Shown: positions 12,602-34,927, counted from the stretch's first letter. The stretch: 64,000 nucleotides of DNA from Acidobacteriota bacterium (GCA_027307335.1 DAHUXD010000054.1:4611-68610), one strand, 5' to 3'. Made by a program: numbers and translations. The notes: generated by a model not told the origin, from the sequence alone.

Positions 12602-12756
12602 AGGCGAAGCGTCGGCACCCCGAGCAATCGGGGACACACGATCGGAAAAAGCATTGGTCCTGAGTCAGGTCCCGGTCCCGGAGGTCCCTAAACTTCGCCG
12701 GAACAGCCGGTTCCGGTCCATCGTGTAGCCGCATCTCCATCCGGCGCCCCCGGGCA

Positions 12757-14337
12757 TTGGGGGGGCGAATGAACACAACTCTCGCGACCGCGATCGCGGC
12801 CGGCCTCGTGCTGGCGGCGATCCTGCTCGCCGTCGGCTGGCTCCTCTTGAAGAAGAGGGTCGAGCGCGAGCGCCAGGGGATCCGCACCGAGGCCGACCGG
12901 GCCCTCGCCGAGGCGAAGAAGCAGGCCGAGTCGAAAGTCCGCGAGGCCGACATCGAGGCGAAGGAGAAGGTCCTCGCGGCCCGGGTCGAGTTCGACAAGA
13001 CCGTTCAGGCCCGGCGGCAGGAGATCGCCGGGCTCGAGAAGCGGGTCCAGCAGAAGGAGGAGAACCTCGACCGCAAGCTCGCCCAGCAGGAGCGGCGCGA
13101 GGAGGAGTACGGCCGCAAGGAGAAGGCCATCGCCGACCAGCAGAAGAAGCTGGAGGACAAGCAGGCGGAGATCGAGCTCGTCGTCGAGGAGCAGAAGAGG
13201 CGCCTCGAGCAGATCTCCGGGCTGACGGCGGTCGACGCGAAACGGGACCTCGTCAAGTCGGTCGAGAACGAGGCGCGGCTCGAGGCCGCCGGCCTGATCC
13301 GGCGCATCGAGGAGGAGGCGAACGAGCAGGCGACGCAGAAGGCCCGCCGGATCATCGGCATGGCCATCCAGCGCCTCGCCTCGGACACGGTGGTCGAGGC
13401 GACCGTGTCCGTCGTGGAGCTTCCCTCCGACGACCTGAAGGGACGGATCATCGGCCGCGAGGGCCGCAACATCCGCGCGCTCGAGGCGGCGACCGGCGTC
13501 GACCTGATCATCGACGACACGCCGGAGGCGATCGTCATCTCCGCGTTCGAGCCCCTGCGCCGCGAGGTCGCGCGCCACGCGCTCGAGAAGCTGATCGTGG
13601 ACGGCCGCATCCACCCGGCCCGCATCGAGGAAATCGTCGAGAAGGTCCGCTCCGAGCTCTGGGAAAGGATCCGCCAGGAGGGCGAGGCGACGGCCCTCGA
13701 GTTCGGGATCTCGGACCTTCACCCCGAGCTCATCAAGATGCTGGGCCGCCTGAAGTACCGCACGTCGTACGGCCAGAACGTGCTCCAGCACTCGAAGGAG
13801 GTCGGCTGGCTCGCCATGAACATGGCGGCGGAGCTCGGCGCCGACGTCGAGGTCGTGCGGCGCGCGGGGCTCCTCCACGACATCGGCAAGGCGATCGACC
13901 GCGAGATGGAGGGCACCCACCTCGAGCTCGGCCGCGAGGTGCTGAAGAAGTTCGGCGAGTCGAACGAAGTGATCCACGCGATGGAGTGCCACCACGGCGA
14001 CTACGAGCCGCGCTCGCTCGAGGCGGTGCTCGTCAACGGCGCCGACGCGCTGTCGGCGGCGCGGCCCGGTGCGCGGCGCGAGATCCTGGAGACCTACGTC
14101 AAGCGGCTCGAGAAGCTCGAGCACATCGCCGACGGCTTCAAGGGCGTGCAGAAATCGTTCGCGATCCAGGCGGGGCGCGAGCTCCGCATCGTCGTCGAGG
14201 CGAACCGCGTCTCGGACGACGAGGCGCTGTGGCTCTCCCGCGACGTCGCGAAGAAGATCGAGGCGGAGCTGCAGTACCCGGGTCAGATCAAGGTGACGGT
14301 GATCCGCGAGACGCGGGCGGTCGAGTACGCGCGCTAG
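12757..14337 (+). CDS. rny: Ribonuclease Y
   Basis: N-terminal TM helix, coiled-coil, KH domain ([13 protein letters not shown]), HD domain (HDIGK); alternative ATG at 12769. Confidence 0.9.
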
Positions 14338-16020: not shown

Positions 16021-16055
16021 TCGGGGTCCTGAAGCTGCTGCTGCGGAGGCCCAAG

Positions 16056-16493
16056 ATGCTCGCCGTCGGAAATCCGGCCCCCTCGTTCGACGTCCTCGAT
16101 CACAACGGCGCGCGCCGCCGCCTCTCGGACTACCGGGGAAAGAACGTCGTCCTCTGGTTCTACCCGAAGGCCGACACTCCCGGTTGAACGGCCGAGGGTT
16201 GCGGGTTCCGCGACCTCTATTCGGAGTTCCAGAAGAAGAACACCGAGATCCTGGGCGTCTCCTTCGACACCGTCGAGGAGAACGCCGCCTTCGCGAAGAA
16301 GTTCGACTATCCCTTCCCGCTCCTCTGCGACGTGCAGCGGGAGATCGGGATGGCCTACGGCGCGTGCGACGACCCGAAGGCGCAGTACGCGAGCCGGATC
16401 ACGTACGTCATCGGCCCGGACGGAAAGATCGCGCAGGCGCACCCGAAACTCACGCCGAAGACGCATCCGAAGGAGATCCTGGCGAGCTTGTAG
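16056..16493 (+). CDS. Bcp-type peroxiredoxin with in-frame UGA (16185-16187) at the peroxidatic-Cys position; putative selenoprotein. Alternative start ATG 16017
   Basis: Manual translation: ...VVLWFYPKADTPG-[TGA]-TAEGCGFRD...; canonical Bcp motif is FYPKDxTPGCTxExCxFRD, and the resolving Cys at +5 is retained; the frame stays open to TAG 16491-16493; the stop-delimited ORF track dropped both halves. Confidence 0.7.
16194..16217 (+). other. GC-rich hairpin 7 nt downstream of the in-frame UGA (candidate bacterial SECIS)
   Basis: GAGG-gtt-GCGG-gtt-CCGC-ga-CCTC read from the sequence. Confidence 0.25.
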
Positions 16494-21700: not shown

Positions 21701-22237
21701 ATGGCGAGGATCGGGGTGTTCCGCGCGGGTCTCGCGGCCGGCGTCTTCGTGGCCTCGACGGCCCTCGCGATGGCCGATGCGCCCGCGGTCGGCTCGCCCG
21801 CCCCGGCGTTCACCCTCACGTCGGACCAGGGGAAGTCCACGAGCCTCACGGACTACAAGGGCAAGTGGGTCGTCCTCTACTTCTATCCGAAGGACTTCAC
21901 CGGCGGTTGAACGCTCGAAGCCCACAACTTCCAGCGTGACCTGGAGCAGTACCAGAAGGCCAACGCCGTCATCCTCGGGGTGAGCCTCGACACCGTCCAA
22001 TCGCACAAGGACTTCTGCGCGAAGGAGGGGCTGCACTTCACCCTCCTGTCGGACCCCGATGGCAAGGTCTCGTCGGCGTACGACTCGGTCATGACCTACG
22101 AGGGGCAGAAGTACTCCGCGCGCCACACGTATCTCATTGCGCCCGACGGGAAGATCGCGAAGGTGTTCCTGAACGTGAAGCCCGGCAACCACAGCGAGGA
22201 GGTGCTCGCCGCACTGGCGAGCCTCCAGAAGAAGTAG
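21701..22237 (+). CDS. Secreted Bcp/Prx-type peroxiredoxin with in-frame UGA (21908-21910) at the peroxidatic-Cys position; putative selenoprotein
   Basis: ORFs 21701..21910 and 21980..22237 are in the same frame, separated only by the TGA; translation ...[13 protein letters not shown]-[TGA][10 protein letters not shown]...; N-terminal signal peptide; paralogous to the 16056 gene. Confidence 0.7.
21912..21936 (+). other. Hairpin immediately 3' of the in-frame UGA (candidate SECIS): CGCTCGAAG-cccacaa-CTTCCAGCG
   Basis: 9-bp stem with one mismatch, starting 2 nt after the UGA. Confidence 0.3.
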
Positions 22238-22253: not shown

Positions 22254-23066
22254 TTGCGCGCGGTCATTCTCGCCGGGGGTCTGGGGACGCGGCTGCGGCG
22301 GCCGGGCGCCGCGGCGAGACTCGACGCCGCGCAGGCGGCGGCGGCCGATCGCGGCCTGAAGGCGCTGGTTCCCATCGGCGGCCGGCCCTTCCTCGACTAC
22401 GGGCTGTCGGGCCTCGCCGACGCCGGCGTGTCCGAGGCCGTCCTCGTGATCGGGCCGGCGAGCGCGGCGATCCGGGAACACTACGCGAAGAATCCGCCGT
22501 CCCGGATCCGGCTCTCGTTCGCCGAGCAGCGCGAGCCGCGCGGCTCGGCCGACGCGCTGCTCGCGGCCGAGCCCCTCGTGGACGCCGGCGGCACGGACTT
22601 CCTCGCGATGAACTCGGACGACCTGTACCCGCCGTCGGCGCTCCGCGGTCTGATCGAGCTCGGGCGGCCGGGACTGCCCGTCTTCTCCGGGGCGGCGCTT
22701 CTCGCGCACGGCAACTTCCCGCCCGAGCGGCTCGCGCGGTTCGCCACGCTCGAGATCGGCGCGAACGGAGAGCTCCGTCGGATCGTCGAGAAGCCCGGCG
22801 GCGCCGCGGCGGGCGCCCCGTCCGGCGATTCCTGGTACAGCATGAACCTTTGGCGCTTCTCGCCGGCGATCTTCGAACCCTGCCGCCGCGTGCCGCTCTC
22901 GACCCGGGGCGAGAAGGAGCTGCCGCAGGCCGTCGGCTTCGGGATCGCCGCGCTCGGCCTGTCGTTCCGCACGTTTCCGTGCGCCGAGGGGGTGATCGAC
23001 CTCTCGACCCGCGATGACGTCGAGGGCGTCGCCGCCCGGCTCGCCGGAGAGGCGCCCCGGCCCTGA
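22254..23066 (+). CDS. Sugar-phosphate nucleotidyltransferase family protein
   Basis: [14 protein letters not shown] signature. Confidence 0.75.
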
Positions 23067-23078
23067 GCGTCCGCCGGG

Positions 23079-26000
23079 TCAGCGAAGCCGGACGAAGTCC
23101 TCGGACAGAACGCGATCGTACGCGTCGAGCGCGCGGTCGGCGTCGGCCTCGGAGAAGACGAGCGGCGGCTTCATCTTGATGACGTCGTGGTCGGGGCCGT
23201 CGGTCGAGAGAAGGATGCCGTGGTCCTTCATCCGCTCGACGACGTACGCGGCCTGGCGCGGGGCGGGCGACCGCGCGTGCCGGTCGAGGACGAGCTCGAT
23301 GCCGAGGAAGAGTCCGAGCCCGCGCACGTCGCCGACGATCTCGTGCCGCTCCGCGAGGAGCCGGAGTCCCGCCTCGAGGCGCGCCCCGACGACGAGCGCC
23401 CGCTCCGGCAGCCGCTCGTCGCGGATCACGTCGAGCACGGCGAGGCCGATCTCGCACGAGACGGGGTTGCCGCCGAAGGTGTTGAAGTACTCCATGCCGT
23501 TCGCGAACGCCGCCGCGATCGCCGGCGTCGTCACGACGGCGCCGAGCGGGTGCCCGTTGCCGATCGGCTTGCCCAGCGTCACGATGTCGGGGACGACGCC
23601 CTGCGTTTCGAATCCCCAGAAGGCCGAGCCGACGCGGCCGAAGCCGACCTGGACCTCGTCGGCGATGCACACGGCGCCGGCCGCGCGGGCGTGGGCGTAG
23701 GCCGCGGCGAGGTAGCCCGGCGGCAGGACGATCTGGCCGCCGCAGGAGAGCAGGCTCTCGCAGAGGAACGCCGCGGGCGCGCGGCCGGCGGCGCGGACGC
23801 GCCCGAACGCCTCGCCGACGTGCGCGGCATACCTCGTTGCGCGCGCCGGGTCGTCGCGCCGGTAGAGCCCGCGGTAGTCGTCCGGCATCGGCGCGACGTG
23901 CACCCATGGAGGCGCGCCCTCGCCGCCCGGTCTCGCGTGCTTGTAGGGGCTGACGTCGACGAGGCCCTGCGTGTTCCCGTGGTACGCGCCGTCCACGACG
24001 ACGACGTCCCGCCCGCCGGTCGCGGCGCGCGCCAGCCGGAGCGCCAGCTCGTTCGCCTCCGATCCCGAGCAGACGAAGAAGCAGACCGATAGGGGGTCCG
24101 GCAGGGTCGCGGCGAGGCGCTCGGCATAGCGGACGATCGACGGGTGGAGGTAGCGCGTGTTCGTGTTGAGCACGGCCATCTGCCGCGCTCCGGCGCGAGC
24201 GACGCGCGGGTGGCCATGGCCGACGTGCGCGACGTTGTTGACCATGTCGAGGTAGACGCGACCGGTCTCGTCGTAGAGCGCGGCTTCGGAGCCGCGCACG
24301 ATCTCGAGCGGGTCGCGGTAGGAGAGCGAAAGGTTCCTCCCGAGGTGCCGCCGGCGCTCGGCGCGCAATCGCTCGTACGCGTCGGCGGGCGCGCGGAATC
24401 GGGGCGGCCCGCCGAGGACGAGGTTCGGATCGGGGCAGAGGGAGAGCCACGTCGCGCGCTGGCTCGCCGCGGCCACTCCCGGGAAGTCGCCGCGGAGACC
24501 GAGGAGGTCCGCGATCACCTGGAAGTGCGTGTGCGGCGCCCAGTCGCCGTTCTCGGGCGGCGGTCCGATCTCTCCGATCTTCTGCCCTCGCACGACGGCA
24601 TCGCCCTCGCGGAGGTCCGCGATCGAGGCACGCGAGAGATGGCCGTACAGCGTGTAGAAGGTCGGACCGCCGTCCGGCGCGTGCTCGAGGATGACCGTCG
24701 GGCCGTAGTCGAAGCGGGCGGCGTTGTCGCGCACGCCGTGCACGCGGCCCGCGATCGGGGCGAAGACGGGGGAGCCCGCCGGCTGGAAGAGGTCGTGGGC
24801 GAGGTGGACCGTGCGGCGCTCCGGGTGCTCCTCCGAGGAGCTGCCGTAGGCGTCGCCGAAGTAGAGCAGCCGCGCCTCGTCGTAGCGGCCGATGCCGAGG
24901 GTGGCGCCCCGGGAAGAGAGCGCGCCGAAGAGCCTCGCCGTCATGCGCTCGCGGTCGGTCGCCTCCTCGGGCGAGGCGAAGACGGGGCTGCCGACCGAGA
25001 GATCGAACACCACGGCCTCCGAGAGGTCCGCCGCCACGACCGGTCCGATCTCCGCGCGGTGTTCCCGAAGCCACGCCGCGATCGCGGGGGTTGTCGGGCA
25101 CGGCTCGAGTCCGCACGCCGCCCGCAGCCGGTAGTGCGCCAGCGAGGAAGGAATCGTCCGCATCGCGGCGAGGGCGTCCCACGCCGGCGCCTCGCTCACG
25201 AGGAGGTACGCGTTGTCGGGCTCGGTCGTGCGGCGGAGCGCCGACAAGCACACGCTCGTGCACAGCCGGATCGCGGTCAGGATCCAGAGCGCCTCGATCT
25301 CGGGCTCCGAGAGCGGCCGCACGGCGTGGTAGCCCGCGGCGACCTCTCCGGCCGCGGCGGCCGGATCCGCCTTGCCGAAGATCGCGTAGGCGGCCGCGAC
25401 CGCCACCTCGGACACCGTCCACGACTCGACCATGTCGCCGAAGTCGAGGAGTCCCGCGATCGTTCGCTCGCGGTCGGCCGGCGGACCGACGAGCACGTTG
25501 TGATCGTTGCCGTCGTTGTGGATGACCGAGCGGGGGAGCGACTGGAGGAGCGGCGCGACGACCCGGGCGTGCTCGGCCACGAAGTGCTCGACGACGGAGC
25601 GCCTTTCGCCGTCCTCGATCCTCCCCACGTGCCGCGCGACGACGTCGAGAGCGCGGTCGGGGTTCCAGAGGAGATCGCGTTGGCGGGCGGCCGGATGCGC
25701 GAAGCCCTCGAGCGCGCGGTCGAGGCGGCCGAGGAGCCGGCCGACTCCGCGCAGGAGGGCCGGCGAACGGGGGCGCGCCTCGGCGAGGACGGTCCCCGGA
25801 AGGTGCGAGAGCACCCGCACGAGCCGGCCTCCGGACTCGACGAGGACGCGGCCGTCCGCCGCGGGCACGAGACGAGGGACCGGGAGCTCGCCGTCTCGGG
25901 TCGCGATCCACTCGAGCGCGCGGTTCTGGAGATCGACGTTCTCTCGACGCTCGGCCGGTCCGCCGATCTTGAAAACGAAGCGCCCGCGCGGCGTGGCGAG

Positions 26001-26138
26001 CTCGAAGTTCTGGTCGCGCTCGCTCGGGAGCTCGCGAATGCCGTCGGCGGGGAGCTGCCAGGCGCTTCGGGCGAGATCCGCAGCGTCCTTCGCCGTCCAG
26101 CGGCTGCCGGGGCCGCCCTGTTCCGCGTCGGAAATCAC
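23079..26138 (-). CDS. Tri-domain protein: APH-like phosphotransferase / M23-family peptidase-like / class-III aminotransferase (PLP)
   Basis: N-terminal kinase motifs ([15 protein letters not shown]); central HxxxD...HxH M23 motifs (YGHLS, PHTHFQ); C-terminal class-III aminotransferase with the [14 protein letters not shown]-lysine region. Confidence 0.8.
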
Positions 26139-26159
26139 GGCGCGATATTCTCACGCGCC

Positions 26160-27410
26160 ATGCAGACCGCCGCGCTCGACGCCCGGCTCGACGTTGCCGC
26201 GATCCGCGGCCGGTTTCCCGCGCTCGCTCGCGTCCACGAGGGCCGTCCCGTGGCCTACTTCGACGGCCCGGGCGGCACGCAGGTGCCCCGCGCCGTCGCC
26301 GACGCGATGACCGACTACCTTCTGCACCACAACGCCAACACGCACTGGAAGTACCCGTCGTCGGAGGAGACCGACGCGATGATCGAGGCGGCGCGCGACG
26401 CCCTGGCCGACTTCGTCAGTGGCGACGCGTCCGAGATCGCGTTCGGCCAGAACATGACGACACTGACGTACCACCTCTCGCGCGCGCTCGGCCGGAAATG
26501 GGGCCCGGGCGACGAGATCGTCGTGACGGAGCTCGACCACCACGCGAACGTCGATCCATGGAAGTGGCTCGCGAAGGAGCGCGGCGTCACGATCCGCAAG
26601 GTCCGCATGCGGACCGAGACCGGGGACCTCGATCCGGCCTACCTCGAGCGCGCCATCGGGAAGCGCACGCGGCTCGTCGCGATCGGGGGCGCCTCGAACG
26701 CGCTCGGCACGATCAACGACGTGCGCCGGATCTGCTCGATGGCGCGCGACGCCGGCGCGCTCGCGTTCGTCGACGCGGTGCACTACGCGCCGCACGTCCT
26801 GCCCGACGTCGCGGAGATCGGGTGCGACTTCCTCGCGTGCTCGCCGTACAAGTTCTACGGGCCGCACCTCGGCGTGCTGTGGGGGAAGCGCGCGCTCATC
26901 GACGCGCTCGACGTGCCGAGGCTCGAGCCGGCGCCGGACTGGTCGCCGGAGCGCCTGGAGACCGGCACGCTCTCGCACGAGGCGATCGCCGGCGCCGCGG
27001 CCGCCGTCGACTTCCTCGCCGGGCTCGCCGGAGGGGCCGCCTCCGGCCGCCGTTCCGCGCTCGAGGCGGCCTATGCGGGCCTCCACGCGCGGGGCGCGCG
27101 CCTGTTCGCGCGCCTCTGGGAGGGACTCGGCCGCATTCCGGGCGTGACGCGCTACGGCCCTCCGGCGGACGCGCGGCGGACGCCGACCGTCTCCTTCGTC
27201 GTCGCCGGGCGCGGCGCGCACGAGGTGGCCGCGGACCTCGCCCGCCGCGCCGTGTTCGCGTCGAGCGGCGACTTCTACGCCTGGACCATCGTTCAGCGCC
27301 TCGGCCACGCGGAGGACGGGCTCGTCCGCGCGGGCTGCGCCATCTATACGACGGACGAGGAGGTCGAGCGGCTGCTCGAGGGGGTCTCGGAGGCGGCGTC
27401 GCGCCGCTAA
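26160..27410 (+). CDS. Class-V aminotransferase, cysteine-desulfurase-like (NifS/SufS family)
   Basis: TELDHHANV, SPYKFYGP (PLP-lysine region); only the C-terminal 416 codons of ORF 24144..27410 are the gene. Confidence 0.8.
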   Translation: MQTAALDARLDVAAIRGRFPALARVHEGRPVAYFDGPGGTQVPRAVADAMTDYLLHHNANTHWKYPSSEETDAMIEAARDALADFVSGDASEIAFGQNMTTLTYHLSRALGRKWGPGDEIVVTELDHHANVDPWKWLAKERGVTIRKVRMRTETGDLDPAYLERAIGKRTRLVAIGGASNALGTINDVRRICSMARDAGALAFVDAVHYAPHVLPDVAEIGCDFLACSPYKFYGPHLGVLWGKRALIDALDVPRLEPAPDWSPERLETGTLSHEAIAGAAAAVDFLAGLAGGAASGRRSALEAAYAGLHARGARLFARLWEGLGRIPGVTRYGPPADARRTPTVSFVVAGRGAHEVAADLARRAVFASSGDFYAWTIVQRLGHAEDGLVRAGCAIYTTDEEVERLLEGVSEAASRR

Positions 27411-30955: not shown

Positions 30956-33900
30956 ATGGCGGGTGACGAGACGCGCGACGACCGCCCCGCTGAGGCGCCC
31001 CACGAGGCGCAGAGGCTCTCGACCGCCCGGCTCTTCTTAATCGTCCTCGTCTTCCTCGCCCTCTCCGCCTACGCGATCTGGAACTCCGACCGTTTCCAGG
31101 CGCTCTTCCAGGGCGTCTCGGAGGAGAAGCTGTCGGCGCTCCTGCAGCGGCCGGTCGCCTTCCGCCGCGTCGATTTCCAGATCTTCCCGCCGTCGATTCA
31201 CCTCGCCGATGTCCGCGTCGGCAACGACCCGCGGATTCCGGACCGCGCGATGCTCGAGGCGGAGGAGCTCACGATCGGCGGCGGCGTATCGGTCACCGGC
31301 GGGGAGCTCCGCTTCGGCCGCGTGCGGGCGATCAAGCCCCGCATCGAGCTCGTGCAGTTTCCCGATGGGACGTGGAACCTCCCGCCGGGGCTCTCCCGCC
31401 CGGCGGGAAAGGGCGGGGGCGGCCTCTCGGTGCGCATCGGCGAGCTCGTGGTCCAGAGCGGCGTCTTCGAGTTCGAAGGGCGCAAGACCGGCCTCGACGG
31501 CCGTTTCGAGGGCTTCGCCGCGGAGCTCGAGGCCCTGCCCGCGAACCGGTACCGCGGCACGTTCATCTGCAGACGGACGACGCTCCACTTCTCCGGCGCC
31601 GAGCCGCTCGTGTTCGGCGTGGACCTCGCGTTCCGCCTGGGCCCGCGCACGGGACTCCAGGTCGAGTCGGCGCGCGTCGACGGCGACTTCGGCGAGCTGC
31701 GCGCCTCGGGAGCGGTCGAGGACCTCAAGAATCCGGAGCTGCTGCTGCGCGTGGCGGCGGACCTGCACGTCGCGGAGGTCGAGCGCGTCTTCCACTCCGC
31801 CCTCGGGTTCGGCGGCGACGCGGCGGTCGAGGCCGAGCTGTCGCTCCCGCCGGGCGGCGAGTTCCGGATCGGCGGAAAGCTCTCGGTGCCGAAGCTCGAC
31901 GCCAAGGGCTTCCTGATCGAGAACTTCGCGGCGAGCGTCATCGCGCGTCCCGACGCGCTGATCGGCCGGATCGAGCGGGGCCGCTACGCCGGCGGCGACC
32001 TCTCCGGCGTGTACCGGATCGAGGGCCTCGCGGGCGGCGGCGGGAAGGCCTCGCCCATGACCCTCTCTCTCGACGGCAGGGGGATCTCGGTCGAGCGCTT
32101 CTTCGCCGACATCCACCTCCCCGGCACCGGGCTCTCGGGGTCCGCCGCGCTGTCGGCGACGCTGCGCTGGGCGGAAGGCGGCATCGAGCGCGCCAACGGC
32201 GCCGCGCGGCTGGCGATCGAGGCGGGTCCGCCCGCTTCGATCGTGCGCGGGCGCTTCGGCATCCCGGTCGCCGGCGGCGGCGCGATGCCCGTGGTGGACG
32301 GCCGGATCCTCTTCGAGGGCGCCGCCTTCCGGCTCGCGACGTCCACGCTCGAGCTGACCGGAGGACTCCGGATCGGCGAGTGGATGCCGGACTTCGACTT
32401 CAAGCTCCGCTCGCGGGAGCTCGTCGAGGTCGACCGGATCTTCCAGAATTTCGAGGCGGCGTCCGGATCCTCGCCCTCGCCGCTCGGCCTCGCGGGCAGC
32501 GGCGACGTCGACGGGCACGTCGCGAGGTCGTGGAGCGATCCCGACGCGTCCGCCCGCTTCACGGCGGAGAACGCGCGCTACGGGGGCGTCCTCTTCGGAA
32601 GCGTGCGCGGGGCCGCCGACATGCACGACGGCGCCTTCGTCTTCCGTCCGCTCCGCGTCTACGAGGGGAGCACGACGCTCTCGCTCGAGGGCGCGATCCG
32701 GTACCGGAAGGACCCGAACCGGCCGACGTTCGACTTCGTGATGACCGCCAAGGACTGGCCCGTGAAGCGCCTGCTCGAGTACCTCGAGCTCGACTATCCG
32801 ATCGAGGGGCGGGTGACGGGGAGCTTCCCGATCCAGGGATCGCCGCCGACCGCGGTCACGGGCGGCGGCGTCGCGGCGCTCGACGACGCGGTGTTCTGGG
32901 GCCAGAAGATCCCGCGCATGACGGGAAAGATGCTGCTGTCGCCCGGAACGTTCACGATCGACGACCTGCGCGCCGAGATCGGCGGCGGCATGGTGGGCGG
33001 CCGCATCTCGATCGCCTATCGCGACAAGGCGTTCGAGGCGCGCGCGGCGGGCGACGGCGTTCCGCTCGAGTCGATCGCGATGCTCGAGCGGTTCTCGAAG
33101 GACGTGTCGGGCAGCGTCTCGTTCGACCTCGCCGCCTCCGGCTCGTTCCGCCGGCCCGATCTGACCGCGACCGCGCGGCTCTCGCAGGCCTCCTTCTACG
33201 GGCACCCGATCCCGGAGGCCCTGTCGCCACGCCTCTCCGCGCGCGTGACGCACGGCGTCGTGGACGCGAGCGCCACCGTGCCGGGCCAGTGGACGCTCAC
33301 CGCGAAGGGCGACGCGGGCGCCACGCCGGTGGAGTTCGACGTCGGCGTCGACGCGCCCGACGTCGCGAGCCTCCTCCTCTTCACGCCGGCGGCGCTCCCG
33401 CAGGGCGACGGCGGCGCGCTCGCCGCGCACGGCCGGATCCGCCTCCCGTCGCGCGAGGGAGAGTGGCCGTCGGGGCGATTCACCGTCACCGAGGCGCGGC
33501 TCGACGCGCGGGATCACCCCAACCTGGTGCGCGTGGACGGCGACGTGCCCGTGTCGATCGCGTCGGGACGCATCGCCATCGAGCGCCTGCACGCCGTCGG
33601 CGACGGGATCGACTTTCGCGTCTCGGCGGCCGCGGACCTCTCCGGCGACAAGCCGGTGATCGAGGGACGCCTCAACGGGTCGACGGACGCGGCAATTCTG
33701 GCGCTCGTCGCGCCCGACGTCGGCCTCTCGGGCCGGATCGTGCTCGACGTCGGCGTCGCCGGGACGGCCGACGCGCCGTCATGGAGCGGCGGCGTGCGCA
33801 TCGAGAACGGGCGCTACCGCACCGCGGGGTACTCGTTCGACGACATCGAGGGCGGCGTGCGTCTCGTCGGTCAGTCGGCGGAGATCGAGGGCCTCCGCGC

Positions 33901-34927
33901 CAAGGTCGCCGACGGCGAGGCCTTCCTCTCGGGCAACCTGCGGTTCGACGGCACGCGGCTGAAGGACTTCCGTCTCGCGGCGCAGGGACGCCGCCTCGGC
34001 GTCCGCGCGGTCCCGGCGCTCCGCCTGACGCTCGACGCCGACCTCGTGGCGACCGGCAACGAGTCGGACAATCAGATCCGCGGCGAGATCACGCTTCTGC
34101 GCGGCACCTACTCGAAGGACGTCGAGATCACTCTGAACGACATCCTGGAGCGCTCGCGGCCGACCGGGGCGATTCCGGCGCGGGAAGCGTGGAAGGAACG
34201 GACGACGCTCGACGTGCGGATCGTTTCGGCGGCGGCCCTCGAGGTGCGCAACAACCTCGCTCGCCTCTCCGGGACGGTGGACCTGCGCGTGCGGGGGACG
34301 CTGGCGGATCCCGCGCTCCTCGGCCAGGTGATCCTCGACGAGGGCGGGAGCGTCGTCTTCAGCGACATCCGCTACGAGGTCGAGGCCGGCACGCTCACGT
34401 TCTCCAACGCGTCCCGCATCGCGCCCTTCGTGGACATCCGCGCGCGTGCCGAGGTCAAGGGCTACAACCTGGTCGTGATGCTCGCCGGCACGTGGCCGCG
34501 GATCGCGGCGAACTTCACGTCGGACCCGCCGCTCCCGAACGATGCCATCCTGGGACTCCTGCTCTCGGGCTCGCCGCCGGACACCCGGTTCCCGACCGAC
34601 ACCGCGAACCAGCTCGTCTCGGCGGCGGGCGGCGCGGTGGCGGGCGCGGCCACGGCGCCGCTGCGCGAGCAGACCCGGCGGCTGTTCAAGCTCGACCGCT
34701 TCCAGATCGAGCCGGTCTTCACCGGCAGCCAGATCACGACGGTGCGATCGACGATCGGCAAGCAGATCACCCCCGATCTGGCGGTCACTTCCTCGATCGC
34801 GCTCGACTCGAGCAAGGAGCCGATCATCCGCGTCGAGTGGCAGGCGACCAACGACATCTTCGTCGAGCTCCTGCGGGACGACACCGGGATCCTTTCGGTG
34901 AGCGTGCGGAGACGGCAGCGCCTGTGA
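30956..34927 (+). CDS. tamB: Translocation and assembly module protein TamB (AsmA-like, C-terminal DUF490)
   Basis: 1323 aa, N-terminal signal anchor, repetitive beta-rich body, conserved C-terminal DUF490-like segment. Confidence 0.75.
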   Translation: MAGDETRDDRPAEAPHEAQRLSTARLFLIVLVFLALSAYAIWNSDRFQALFQGVSEEKLSALLQRPVAFRRVDFQIFPPSIHLADVRVGNDPRIPDRAMLEAEELTIGGGVSVTGGELRFGRVRAIKPRIELVQFPDGTWNLPPGLSRPAGKGGGGLSVRIGELVVQSGVFEFEGRKTGLDGRFEGFAAELEALPANRYRGTFICRRTTLHFSGAEPLVFGVDLAFRLGPRTGLQVESARVDGDFGELRASGAVEDLKNPELLLRVAADLHVAEVERVFHSALGFGGDAAVEAELSLPPGGEFRIGGKLSVPKLDAKGFLIENFAASVIARPDALIGRIERGRYAGGDLSGVYRIEGLAGGGGKASPMTLSLDGRGISVERFFADIHLPGTGLSGSAALSATLRWAEGGIERANGAARLAIEAGPPASIVRGRFGIPVAGGGAMPVVDGRILFEGAAFRLATSTLELTGGLRIGEWMPDFDFKLRSRELVEVDRIFQNFEAASGSSPSPLGLAGSGDVDGHVARSWSDPDASARFTAENARYGGVLFGSVRGAADMHDGAFVFRPLRVYEGSTTLSLEGAIRYRKDPNRPTFDFVMTAKDWPVKRLLEYLELDYPIEGRVTGSFPIQGSPPTAVTGGGVAALDDAVFWGQKIPRMTGKMLLSPGTFTIDDLRAEIGGGMVGGRISIAYRDKAFEARAAGDGVPLESIAMLERFSKDVSGSVSFDLAASGSFRRPDLTATARLSQASFYGHPIPEALSPRLSARVTHGVVDASATVPGQWTLTAKGDAGATPVEFDVGVDAPDVASLLLFTPAALPQGDGGALAAHGRIRLPSREGEWPSGRFTVTEARLDARDHPNLVRVDGDVPVSIASGRIAIERLHAVGDGIDFRVSAAADLSGDKPVIEGRLNGSTDAAILALVAPDVGLSGRIVLDVGVAGTADAPSWSGGVRIENGRYRTAGYSFDDIEGGVRLVGQSAEIEGLRAKVADGEAFLSGNLRFDGTRLKDFRLAAQGRRLGVRAVPALRLTLDADLVATGNESDNQIRGEITLLRGTYSKDVEITLNDILERSRPTGAIPAREAWKERTTLDVRIVSAAALEVRNNLARLSGTVDLRVRGTLADPALLGQVILDEGGSVVFSDIRYEVEAGTLTFSNASRIAPFVDIRARAEVKGYNLVVMLAGTWPRIAANFTSDPPLPNDAILGLLLSGSPPDTRFPTDTANQLVSAAGGAVAGAATAPLREQTRRLFKLDRFQIEPVFTGSQITTVRSTIGKQITPDLAVTSSIALDSSKEPIIRVEWQATNDIFVELLRDDTGILSVSVRRRQRL

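What the first reader, a model, noticed from the sequence alone, without database searches (positions are those of the whole stretch)
23079..27410. 1019-aa fusion of APH-like kinase, M23 peptidase-like domain and class-III aminotransferase, divergent from a NifS-like PLP enzyme
One reading frame carries three normally separate enzymatic modules. The kinase plus class-III aminotransferase combination recalls the animal hydroxylysine kinase / 5-phosphohydroxylysine phospho-lyase pair (APH-like kinase followed by an AGXT2L-type phospho-lyase), which suggests a phosphorylate-then-eliminate route for an amino alcohol or hydroxy amino acid. The intervening M23-like domain (HxxxD...HxH retained) is unexplained. 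A second PLP enzyme is transcribed divergently 21 bp away. The substrate is unknown.
Basis: partly seen in the sequence, partly recalled or inferred. Interest (0 to 1): 0.6.

Follow-up and report, generated by a model that had tools for sequence, protein, structure and literature searches.

The report
Fused amino-alcohol kinase, M23 domain, phospho-lyase
This is a real 1019-residue bacterial enzyme that joins a small-molecule kinase, a zinc-peptidase-like domain and a phosphate-eliminating vitamin-B6 enzyme; it belongs to a large, already catalogued family, so the gene is ordinary, although the role of the peptidase-like domain and the natural substrate remain untested.

Summary
ORF 23079..26138 (-) encodes 1019 aa with APH kinase (aa 34-272), Peptidase_M23 (aa 444-542) and class-III aminotransferase (aa 611-1010) domains. 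A class-V PLP enzyme starts 21 bp away on the other strand.

The fusion is not new. It passes the full-length NCBIfam model NF004799/PRK06148. Its M23 module defines at least 822 protein clusters across many phyla.

The C-terminal domain is 52% identical to human ethanolamine-phosphate phospho-lyase (473 bits, against at most 200 bits for any transaminase, racemase or decarboxylase). Catalytic residues of all three domains are conserved across the family.

Elsewhere, kinase and lyase occur as a two-domain fusion without M23 or as adjacent, overlapping genes. They therefore work together, and M23 is dispensable for the chemistry.

Best reading: phosphorylate an amino alcohol, then eliminate phosphate and ammonia. 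In Bacteroidota, Marinimicrobia and Gemmatimonadota the genes sit beside beta-galactosidase, galactose-pathway, prolidase and hydroxyproline genes. This points to collagen-derived (galactosyl-)5-hydroxylysine, with ethanolamine as the rival substrate.

The class-V neighbour is conserved only within Thermoanaerobaculia, where all neighbouring housekeeping genes are syntenic, so no functional link is shown.

Verdict: a new member of a known kind, of modest interest.

The parts
23079..26138 (-). Whole gene: 1019-aa kinase / M23 / phospho-lyase fusion (stop codon 23079-23081, GTG start 26136-26138)
   Evidence: full-length NCBIfam NF004799 (PRK06148) 1268 bits against cutoff 1128; AF2 full-length model pLDDT 87.2, pTM 0.87
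25104..26102 (-). APH-type small-molecule kinase domain (aa 13-345). K57 = 25968-25970; HNDGNDHN motif aa 207-214 = 25497-25520; Mg-binding D232 = 25443-25445
   Evidence: Pfam APH 3.3e-24; only PDB sequence hit is homoserine kinase type II 2ppq; weak NCBIfam homoserine kinase hits; residues conserved in 44 three-domain and 5 two-domain homologues; coordinates checked
24339..25103 (-). M23 module (aa 346-600), absent from the two-domain and split forms. It includes a family-specific pre-M23 segment with the invariant motif G-R-Y-x-E-x-R-x-x-Y (aa 417-426)
   Evidence: Two-domain relatives lack aa ~350-586; module profile finds 822 clusters at E<=1e-30, nearly always at position ~345-600 of the protein; AF2 module model pLDDT 84, pTM 0.84; invariant columns
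24504..24818 (-). M23 catalytic core (aa 441-545). HLAHD = 24792-24806; H500 = 24639-24641; HTH = 24525-24533
   Evidence: Pfam PF01551 2.6e-14; residue-by-residue alignment to 2hsi, 9m7n, 2gu1; Foldseek hits to ShyA, EnpA, lysostaphin, LytM at E 5e-8 to 1e-6; H445, D449, H500, H538 in 44/44 and H536 in 43/44 homologues
23082..24338 (-). Class-III PLP fold domain of the AGXT2L phospho-lyase subfamily (aa 601-1019). PLP lysine K857 = 23568-23570
   Evidence: Pfam 6.2e-73; 6tor 473 bits, 5g4i 333 bits; 51.7% identity to human ETNPPL; K857, D827, Q830, Y719, H720 conserved
26139..26159 (.). 21-bp divergent spacer GGCGCGATATTCTCACGCGCC with a terminal 6-bp inverted repeat. Both promoters must lie inside the neighbouring coding sequences
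   Evidence: read directly from the sequence
26160..27410 (+). Divergent neighbour: class-V PLP enzyme, VC1184-type 'cysteine desulfurase-like'. Listed because the finding includes it; no functional link is shown
   Evidence: Adjacency is kept only in the 10 Thermoanaerobaculia-type loci, where TlyA, NAD kinase and TamB are also syntenic

Best explanation
The gene encodes a cytoplasmic, self-contained catabolic enzyme for a vicinal amino alcohol. The N-terminal APH-type kinase phosphorylates the hydroxyl group of the substrate. The C-terminal PLP domain, an AGXT2L-type phospho-lyase and not a transaminase, forms an aldimine with the neighbouring primary amine and eliminates phosphate. Hydrolysis of the resulting enamine/imine then releases ammonia and a carbonyl product. 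The most likely physiological substrate is 5-hydroxy-L-lysine, giving 2-aminoadipate semialdehyde, probably derived from collagen-like proteins and their galactosyl-hydroxylysine units. Ethanolamine, giving acetaldehyde, is the main alternative. The central M23 module is a family-specific accessory with an intact zinc site. It is not needed for the two-step chemistry. It either frees the amino alcohol from a small peptide or amide conjugate, or serves as a zinc-containing scaffold between the two catalytic domains. Shown here: domain identities, subfamily placement, conservation of catalytic residues, fusion/split variants, and gene contexts. Inferred: the reaction, the substrate and any M23 activity.
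For: - Subfamily placement: the AT domain scores 473 bits to human ethanolamine-phosphate phospho-lyase and 333 bits to the Arthrobacter phospholyase, against at most 200 bits for any transaminase, racemase or decarboxylase. Identity to ETNPPL is 51.7%, about the same as to bacterial split-type lyases.
- Catalytic residues of the kinase (K57, H207, D209, N214, D232) and lyase (K857, D827, Q830) are conserved across phyla.
- Rosetta-stone evidence among 80 loci: three-domain proteins of ~1000-1050 aa; two-domain kinase-lyase proteins of ~775-781 aa (L058, L060, L061, L065, L067); and adjacent, often overlapping, kinase (~335 aa) and lyase (~430 aa) genes (L063, L064, L066, L068-L080).
- Substrate context, L045 (Bacteroidota, three-domain form). 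The same-strand run is: Pro_racemase-family enzyme, regulator, aldose 1-epimerase, YgjK/GH63-like alpha-glucosidase, GH2 beta-galactosidase, alpha-galactosidase, the fusion, GH2 beta-galactosidase, galactokinase, Gal-1-P uridylyltransferase. Prolidase, Xaa-Pro aminopeptidase and a D-amino-acid dehydrogenase lie on the other strand.
- Substrate context, six Marinimicrobia loci: M24 or amine oxidase, kinase, lyase, GH2, Na+/solute symporter (five of the six), with a Pro_racemase-family gene in three; GH109 and galactokinase were annotated in L080.
- Further contexts: a Pro_racemase-family gene lies directly downstream in L047, and L064 has an OCD-type reductase as well. Aldehyde dehydrogenase lies directly upstream in L012, L013, L020 and L029.
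- Collagen carries Glc-alpha1,2-Gal-beta-O-hydroxylysine (PMC8626586), which fits an alpha-glucosidase + beta-galactosidase + Leloir-pathway + kinase/lyase set.
- M23: zinc ligands and catalytic histidines are invariant, the fold is confirmed, and the full-length model pTM of 0.87 suggests a fixed domain arrangement.
Against: - No enzyme of this fused family has been assayed, as far as I could find (10 literature searches).
- The window's own neighbourhood is housekeeping (XseA, polyprenyl synthase, TlyA, NAD kinase, TamB) and says nothing about the substrate.
- The collagen-type context appears in only 3-4 independent lineages among the sampled loci, and no neighbour is universal.
- The two solved relatives both act on phosphoethanolamine.
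- The aldehyde dehydrogenase neighbours are generic (best match MdlD-like, below cutoff) and not recognisably aminoadipate-semialdehyde dehydrogenases.
- The kinase domain's nearest named relatives are homoserine kinases, at weak scores.
Confidence: 0.8

Rival explanations
1. Same kinase-then-lyase mechanism, but the substrate is ethanolamine. This would be a B12-independent route from ethanolamine via phosphoethanolamine to acetaldehyde, ammonia and phosphate, for example for phospholipid head-group turnover.
For: Both solved relatives (human ETNPPL 6tor and Arthrobacter A1RDF1 5g4i) are phosphoethanolamine phospho-lyases. A generic aldehyde dehydrogenase lies directly upstream in four loci. 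The family is widespread in soil and marine bacteria that all make phosphatidylethanolamine.
Against: The comparison is biased because PHYKPL has no solved structure. Contexts with GH2 beta-galactosidase, the Leloir pathway, prolidase and hydroxyproline enzymes are not explained by ethanolamine. No eut-type, glycerophosphodiesterase or ethanolamine permease genes were seen among the neighbours scanned.
Confidence: 0.25
2. The M23 module is a purely structural or regulatory zinc-binding spacer with no hydrolytic activity, like the LytM-type domains of EnvC, NlpD or LECT2. It would hold kinase and lyase together or mediate oligomerisation.
For: Kinase and lyase function without it in the two-domain and split forms. 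The full-length pTM of 0.87, and the rise in pLDDT of the [12 protein letters not shown] segment from ~67 in the isolated module to 94/77 in the full-length model, suggest inter-domain packing. The sister family PRK06149 matches this module only weakly (37 bits). The protein is cytoplasmic, whereas M23 substrates are normally in the cell wall.
Against: Known non-catalytic LytM domains have lost the zinc ligands. Here H445, D449, H500, H536 and H538 are invariant in 43-44 of 44 homologues at 41-89% identity, and the M23 core is more conserved than the kinase domain (mean 0.66 against 0.55).
Confidence: 0.45
3. The protein acts on 1-amino-2-propanol (the aminoacetone pathway), as does the kinase/phospho-lyase pair of the mycobacterial RMM microcompartment.
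For: The chemistry is the same (an APH-like kinase followed by a class-III phospho-lyase); this pathway is known to me from Mallette and Kimber 2018, from memory.
Against: No microcompartment shell genes or amino-propanol dehydrogenase were seen in any neighbourhood scanned. The kinase domain's only PDB sequence match at E<0.01 is homoserine kinase 2ppq.
Confidence: 0.05
4. The C-terminal domain is an ordinary omega-transaminase, and the fusion couples phosphorylation to transamination of an aminated substrate.
For: It matches Pfam Aminotran_3 and many NCBIfam transaminase models at 170-260 bits. Public annotations call it an aminotransferase.
Against: All of those NCBIfam transaminase scores are far below their cutoffs. 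The match to the two known lyases is 130-270 bits higher than to any transaminase.
Confidence: 0.03

Closest known systems
NCBIfam NF004799 (PRK06148) and its sister NF004800 (PRK06149): bacterial ~1000-aa kinase/M23/class-III PLP fusion proteins, annotated 'hypothetical protein' or 'aminotransferase'
   Same: Full-length, end-to-end match (aa 13-1013 to profile 10-1010 of 1015) at 1268 bits, above the 1128 cutoff. Same domain order and length as more than 100 listed homologues.
   Different: Nothing structural; this is a member. It comes from a Thermoanaerobaculia (Acidobacteriota) lineage. The score to PRK06149 is below that model's cutoff (793 against 973), and that model matches the M23 module only weakly.
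Animal hydroxylysine kinase (HYKK/AGPHD1) plus 5-phosphohydroxy-L-lysine phospho-lyase (PHYKPL/AGXT2L2) and ethanolamine-phosphate phospho-lyase (ETNPPL/AGXT2L1)
   Same: An APH-type kinase paired with an AGXT2L-type PLP lyase. The lyase domain is 51.7% identical to human ETNPPL over more than 400 residues. The logic is the same: phosphorylate, then eliminate.
   Different: The animal proteins are separate polypeptides with no M23 domain. Orthology of the kinase domain to HYKK, and of the lyase domain to PHYKPL rather than ETNPPL, was not tested here.
Arthrobacter aurescens A1RDF1 phospholyase (PDB 5g4i/5g4j), a stand-alone bacterial class-III homologue acting on O-phosphoethanolamine
   Same: Same lyase subfamily; 333 bits, 43% identity.
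   Different: It is a stand-alone protein, and it is more distant from the window's domain than human ETNPPL is.
M23/LytM zinc metallopeptidases (LytM, lysostaphin, ShyA, EnpA, Csd3)
   Same: Same fold and the full HxxxD / H / HxH catalytic set.
   Different: Here the domain is internal to a cytoplasmic enzyme with no signal peptide. It has a family-specific N-terminal extension carrying an invariant G-R-Y-x-E-x-R-x-x-Y motif. A peptidoglycan substrate is implausible.

Membership tests
NCBIfam NF004799 / PRK06148 (three-domain fusion family) | Whole-protein HMM score at or above the curated cutoff, with end-to-end coverage | tested here: met
   1268.1 bits against cutoff 1128; aa 13-1013 aligned to profile 10-1010 of 1015
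AGXT2L-type phospho-lyases (class-III PLP fold) | Class-III fold with the PLP-binding lysine and the Asp that contacts the pyridine nitrogen | tested here: met
   Pfam PF00202 6.2e-73; K857 is K in 43/44 three-domain homologues and invariant in the 45-sequence alignment; D827 and Q830 invariant in both
AGXT2L-type phospho-lyases (class-III PLP fold) | Closer in sequence to characterised phospho-lyases than to any transaminase, racemase or decarboxylase | tested here: met
   6tor 473 bits and 5g4i 333 bits, against 200 bits for the next hit (1dka) and ~170 for GabT. No explicit tree was built.
AGXT2L-type phospho-lyases (class-III PLP fold) | 1,2-elimination of phosphate and ammonia from a phospho-amino-alcohol, with no transamination | not testable with these tools
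   Needs an enzyme assay
AGXT2L-type phospho-lyases (class-III PLP fold) | Assignment to the PHYKPL (phosphohydroxylysine) or the ETNPPL (phosphoethanolamine) specificity group | not tested
   No PHYKPL sequence or structure was available (only ETNPPL is in the PDB). Gene context in other lineages favours hydroxylysine.
APH / choline-kinase-like small-molecule kinases (Pfam PF01636) | HxDxxxxN catalytic loop, a Mg-binding Asp (DFG-like) and an ATP-binding Lys in strand beta-3 | tested here: met
   HNDGNDHN aa 207-214, D232 in LLDFGD, K57 in FKIGG. D209, N214 and D232 are invariant in 44 three-domain and 5 two-domain homologues; K57 is invariant in the 45-sequence alignment; H207 is 42/44.
Hydroxylysine kinase (HYKK/AGPHD1) orthologues | Reciprocal best similarity to animal HYKK, and GTP/ATP-dependent phosphorylation of 5-hydroxy-L-lysine | not tested
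   No HYKK sequence was available in the tools. The nearest named bacterial models are homoserine kinases, far below cutoff (61 bits against 271; 2ppq 35.6 bits).
Peptidase family M23 (catalytically competent members) | Zinc ligands H-x3-D and the second His of H-x-H, plus the two catalytic histidines | tested here: met
   H445, D449, H500, H536 and H538 align to the corresponding residues of 2hsi, 9m7n and 2gu1 and are kept in 43-44 of 44 homologues
Peptidase family M23 (catalytically competent members) | M23 fold | tested here: met
   AF2 module model pLDDT 84; Foldseek probability 1.00 to ShyA, EnpA, lysostaphin and LytM
Peptidase family M23 (catalytically competent members) | Extracytoplasmic location and a peptidoglycan or glycyl-peptide substrate | tested here: not met
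   The domain is internal (aa 346-600) to a protein with a hydrophilic N-terminus and no signal peptide, between two cytoplasmic enzyme domains. It works in a different setting from classical M23 peptidases; hydrolytic activity itself is untested.
Functional pair with the divergent class-V (VC1184-type) enzyme | Adjacency conserved across lineages beyond general synteny | tested here: not met
   Found next to the fusion only in 10 closely related loci, where TlyA, NAD kinase, Zn-ADH and TamB are also syntenic. It is absent in the other 70 loci, apart from two distant 29-32% class-V hits.

The most novel reading that the evidence does not exclude
The M23 module is an active cytoplasmic zinc hydrolase that releases 5-hydroxylysine from short collagen-derived peptides or another amide conjugate. 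The single polypeptide would then run three consecutive steps: release, phosphorylate, eliminate. The family would mark a previously undescribed bacterial route for using collagen hydroxylysine and its Glc-Gal glycoside in soils, sponges and the ocean.
Probability: 0.2. Interest if true: 0.6.

Novelty: new member of a known kind. Interest (0 to 1): 0.33.

Why it matters
For this window the result is mainly a correct annotation. Databases call the gene an 'aminotransferase' or 'hypothetical protein', but it is best read as a fused amino-alcohol kinase and phospho-lyase.

The wider family (at least 822 clusters at 50% identity) still lacks an assayed bacterial member. Two concrete questions are now testable:
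- Is the substrate collagen-type 5-hydroxylysine, as the galactosidase / Leloir / prolidase / hydroxyproline gene neighbourhoods in three phyla suggest?
- What does a fully conserved M23 zinc site do inside a cytoplasmic metabolic enzyme?

A positive answer would add a missing step to bacterial degradation of animal extracellular matrix, and a non-cell-wall role for M23 domains.

Tried and rejected
- Functional link to the divergent class-V enzyme: rejected. Adjacency is confined to one clade with general synteny.
- A universal operon partner: none found. Among 64 same-strand neighbours, no Pfam family occurs more than three times.
- Literature on the bacterial fused enzyme: ten full-text searches found nothing specific. 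The last search was badly designed and wasted. The key 2012 paper is not held, so its content is cited from memory apart from its title.
- Looking for stand-alone relatives of the M23 module: the profile search returned mostly fusions or contig-end fragments with the module at about aa 345. No clear stand-alone family emerged.
- Aldehyde dehydrogenase neighbours as aminoadipate-semialdehyde dehydrogenases: not supported; their best match is MdlD-like and below cutoff.
- Cluster look-up of the identical public protein P0001: it carries no name or accession.
- PHYKPL-versus-ETNPPL and HYKK comparisons: not done.
- Reading the two AhpC fragments as pseudogenes: rejected in favour of selenocysteine (see the items noticed in passing).


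Full report
**Observation**

The window is about 72% G+C. On the minus strand, 23079..26138 is an ORF of 1019 codons with a GTG start. Its GC by codon position is 0.76/0.51/0.93, the pattern of real genes here.

Pfam places three domains in it, all above their gathering scores:
- APH (PF01636), aa 34-272, E = 3.3e-24.
- Peptidase_M23 (PF01551), aa 444-542, E = 2.6e-14.
- Aminotran_3 (PF00202), aa 611-1010, E = 6.2e-73.

The divergent gene 26160..27410 (+) is a class-V PLP enzyme. It passes TIGR01976, the VC1184-type 'cysteine desulfurase-like protein' (455 bits, cutoff 352). The two start codons are separated by 21 bp.

**It is a catalogued family**

The whole protein matches NCBIfam NF004799 (PRK06148, 'hypothetical protein') end to end at 1268 bits, above the cutoff of 1128.

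A homology search returned more than 3000 relatives. The best 120 were nearly all 1000-1050 aa (a few shorter or partial), and 115 of the 120 carried all three Pfam domains (the other five lacked an APH call). They came mostly from Thermoanaerobaculia and other Acidobacteriota metagenome bins and were annotated 'aminotransferase class III-fold' or '4-aminobutyrate aminotransferase-like / RdoA kinase'.

A profile of the M23 module alone (aa 346-600) finds 822 clusters at E <= 1e-30 among 1.84 billion representatives. The module almost always sits at about residue 345-600 of the hit.

A scan of one genome per species gave 80 loci from many phyla: Acidobacteriota, Gemmatimonadota, Bacteroidota, Chloroflexota, Alpha- and Gammaproteobacteria, Methylomirabilota, Actinomycetes and Marinimicrobia. 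They include the cultured Sulfidibacter corallicola M133.

**The C-terminal domain is a phospho-lyase type, not a transaminase type**

| PDB comparison | Score |
|---|---|
| Human ethanolamine-phosphate phospho-lyase, 6tor | 473 bits, 51.7% identity over >400 residues |
| Arthrobacter phospholyase A1RDF1, 5g4i | 333 bits, 43% identity |
| Next hit, dialkylglycine decarboxylase | 200 bits |
| GABA transaminases | about 170 bits |

All NCBIfam transaminase models score far below their cutoffs. The PLP lysine (K857) and D827/Q830 are conserved.

[quoted passage not shown] Placement next to them is therefore informative.

**The kinase looks competent**

K57, the HxDxxxxN loop (H207, D209, N214) and D232 are present. 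They are invariant or nearly so in 44 three-domain and 5 two-domain homologues. The nearest named relatives are type II homoserine kinases, at weak scores (2ppq, 35.6 bits; PRK05231, 61 bits against a cutoff of 271). It is thus a small-molecule hydroxyl kinase of its own subfamily.

**Kinase and lyase belong together; M23 is optional**

Three arrangements occur among the 80 loci:
- The three-domain protein (most loci).
- A two-domain kinase-lyase protein of 775-781 aa that lacks exactly aa ~350-586 (L058, L060, L061, L065, L067).
- Adjacent, often overlapping, genes for a ~335-aa kinase and a ~430-aa lyase (L063, L064, L066, L068-L080).

This is classical fusion/split evidence that the two enzymes act in one pathway. 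It also shows that the chemistry does not require the M23 module.

**The M23 module**

It aligns residue by residue with solved M23 peptidases. The zinc ligands and catalytic histidines are in place: H445-x3-D449, H500, H536-x-H538.

- H445, D449, H500 and H538 are kept in 44 of 44, and H536 in 43 of 44, three-domain homologues at 41-89% identity.
- The M23 core is more conserved than the kinase domain (mean column conservation 0.66 against 0.55).
- An AlphaFold model of the module (pLDDT 84, pTM 0.84) matches ShyA, EnpA, lysostaphin and LytM with Foldseek probability 1.00.
- Upstream of the core lies a family-specific segment with an invariant G-R-Y-x-E-x-R-x-x-Y motif at aa 417-426.
- The full-length model has pLDDT 87 and pTM 0.87, which suggests a defined domain arrangement. 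The motif's confidence rises from about 67 in the isolated module to 94/77 in the whole protein.

The protein has no signal peptide, so a cell-wall substrate is implausible. I cannot decide between a hydrolase acting on a small cytoplasmic peptide or amide and a zinc-containing scaffold. The intact, invariant active site argues against simple degeneration, unlike EnvC/NlpD-type LytM domains.

**Neighbourhood**

In the window the neighbours are housekeeping or unrelated genes:
- Exonuclease VII large subunit.
- Polyprenyl synthase.
- A nucleotidyl transferase.
- An LCM-type methyltransferase.
- A zinc alcohol dehydrogenase.
- A TlyA-like methyltransferase.
- NAD kinase.
- TamB.

The divergent class-V gene is kept beside the fusion only in the 10 loci of the same clade (fusion identity 63-89%). 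There TlyA, NAD kinase, the alcohol dehydrogenase and TamB are also syntenic. In the other 70 loci it is absent. This is lineage synteny and not evidence of a shared pathway.

Across 64 same-strand neighbours from all lineages, no family recurs more than three times. The enzyme is essentially self-contained.

**Substrate clues from other lineages**

- L045, a Bacteroidota bin with the three-domain form, places the gene inside one long same-strand run. The run contains a Pro_racemase-family enzyme (best match trans-3-hydroxy-L-proline dehydratase, below cutoff), a regulator, aldose 1-epimerase and a YgjK/GH63-like alpha-glucosidase. It continues with GH2 beta-galactosidase, alpha-galactosidase, the fusion, a second GH2 beta-galactosidase, galactokinase and galactose-1-phosphate uridylyltransferase. 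On the opposite strand lie prolidase, Xaa-Pro aminopeptidase and a D-amino-acid dehydrogenase.
- Six Marinimicrobia loci with split genes read: Xaa-Pro aminopeptidase or amine oxidase, kinase, lyase, GH2. A sodium/solute symporter follows in five of them and a Pro_racemase-family gene in three; GH109 and galactokinase were annotated in L080.
- L047 (Gemmatimonadaceae, three-domain) has a Pro_racemase-family gene directly downstream. L064 has Xaa-Pro aminopeptidase, kinase, lyase, an OCD-type pyrroline/piperideine-2-carboxylate reductase-like gene and a Pro_racemase-family gene.
- L044 has M28 and U32 peptidases downstream.
- A generic aldehyde dehydrogenase lies directly upstream in L012, L013, L020 and L029.

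Collagen hydroxylysine carries Glc-alpha1,2-Gal-beta (PMC8626586). An alpha-glucosidase, a beta-galactosidase, the Leloir pathway, proline-specific peptidases and hydroxyproline enzymes next to a hydroxylysine-type kinase/lyase form a coherent set for collagen glycopeptide catabolism.

This is context evidence from three or four independent lineages. It does not come from the window's own lineage, and it is not a test of activity.

**Mechanism proposed**

1. Inferred and optional: M23-mediated release of the amino alcohol from a peptide or amide.
2. Inferred from family membership and intact motifs: ATP- or GTP-dependent phosphorylation of the hydroxyl vicinal to a primary amine.
3. Inferred from 52% identity to a characterised lyase: aldimine formation with PLP on K857, alpha-deprotonation and beta-elimination of phosphate. 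Hydrolysis then gives ammonia plus 2-aminoadipate semialdehyde (from 5-phosphohydroxylysine) or acetaldehyde (from phosphoethanolamine).

I put about 0.8 on the kinase-then-lyase mechanism. Within it, I put roughly 0.5 on hydroxylysine, 0.25 on ethanolamine, and the rest on other amino alcohols.

**Comparison with what is known, and novelty**

The architecture is already in NCBIfam. To my recollection of the abstract of Veiga-da-Cunha et al. 2012, bacterial bi- or tri-functional proteins of exactly this kind were the clue used to identify human hydroxylysine kinase and the two ammoniophospholyases. The title of that paper is confirmed; the text is not held.

I found no report of an assayed bacterial fusion protein, nor of a role for its M23 domain. 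This rests on ten literature searches, and many journals are not covered.

The window's gene is therefore a new member of a known kind, and interest is modest (0.33). The residual value lies in the unexplained but strictly conserved M23 site and in the testable hydroxylysine/collagen hypothesis.

**Seen in passing**

Two peroxiredoxin-like (AhpC/TSA) genes in the window have an in-frame TGA exactly at the peroxidatic cysteine position. One TGA is conserved in an 89%-related genome. These are very probably selenoproteins and not pseudogenes.

Noticed in passing
window ~16053-16493 (+), TGA at 16185-16187: An AhpC/TSA (BCP-type peroxiredoxin) gene has an in-frame TGA exactly where the peroxidatic Cys sits (VVLWFYPKADTPG*TAEGCGFRD). 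A stable hairpin begins a few bases downstream (-22.7 kcal/mol for the 61 nt starting at the TGA). It is probably a selenocysteine peroxiredoxin. ORF lists split it in two, so it looks like a truncated gene.
   Followed up: partly
window ~21701-22237 (+), TGA at 21908-21910: A second AhpC/TSA gene, with a signal-peptide-like N-terminus, also has an in-frame TGA at the catalytic Cys position ([23 protein letters not shown]). The same TGA is conserved in the 89%-related genome L001. No tRNA-Sec or sel genes were found within the window, which holds only two tRNA-Val genes.
   Followed up: partly
window 26139-26159: The 21-bp spacer between the divergent start codons is GGCGCGATATTCTCACGCGCC, whose ends form a 6-bp inverted repeat (GGCGCG/CGCGCC). 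It could be a shared operator. Both promoters must lie inside the neighbouring coding regions.
   Followed up: no
L045:218-22929 (uncultured Bacteroidetes bin): A long gene run combines a GH63-like alpha-glucosidase, two GH2 beta-galactosidases, alpha-galactosidase, aldose epimerase, galactokinase and GalT with the three-domain fusion. A Pro_racemase-family enzyme, prolidase, Xaa-Pro aminopeptidase and a D-amino-acid dehydrogenase are in the same locus. It looks like a candidate locus for using collagen Glc-Gal-hydroxylysine glycopeptides.
   Followed up: partly
L066, L075, L076, L077, L079, L080 (Marinimicrobia bins): A conserved run reads: Xaa-Pro aminopeptidase or amine oxidase, split kinase, lyase, ~1050-aa GH2 beta-galactosidase. 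A Na+/solute symporter follows in five of the six loci and a Pro_racemase-family gene in three; GH109, a second symporter and galactokinase were annotated in L080.
   Followed up: partly
window 23066-23079 compared with L001-L003 and other close relatives: In this window a nucleotidyl transferase gene ends 13 bp from the fusion's stop codon. In close relatives the two are about 2 kb apart, and in L002 and L003 a ~446-aa minus-strand gene lies between them. The window's lineage has apparently lost, or never gained, that intervening DNA.
   Followed up: no
window 30956-34927 (+) and 12664-14337 (+): A 1323-aa TamB-like protein and an RNase Y gene lie in the same window. Together with the homologue taxonomy, they fit a diderm Acidobacteriota (Thermoanaerobaculia) origin for this 72% GC sequence.
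   Followed up: no
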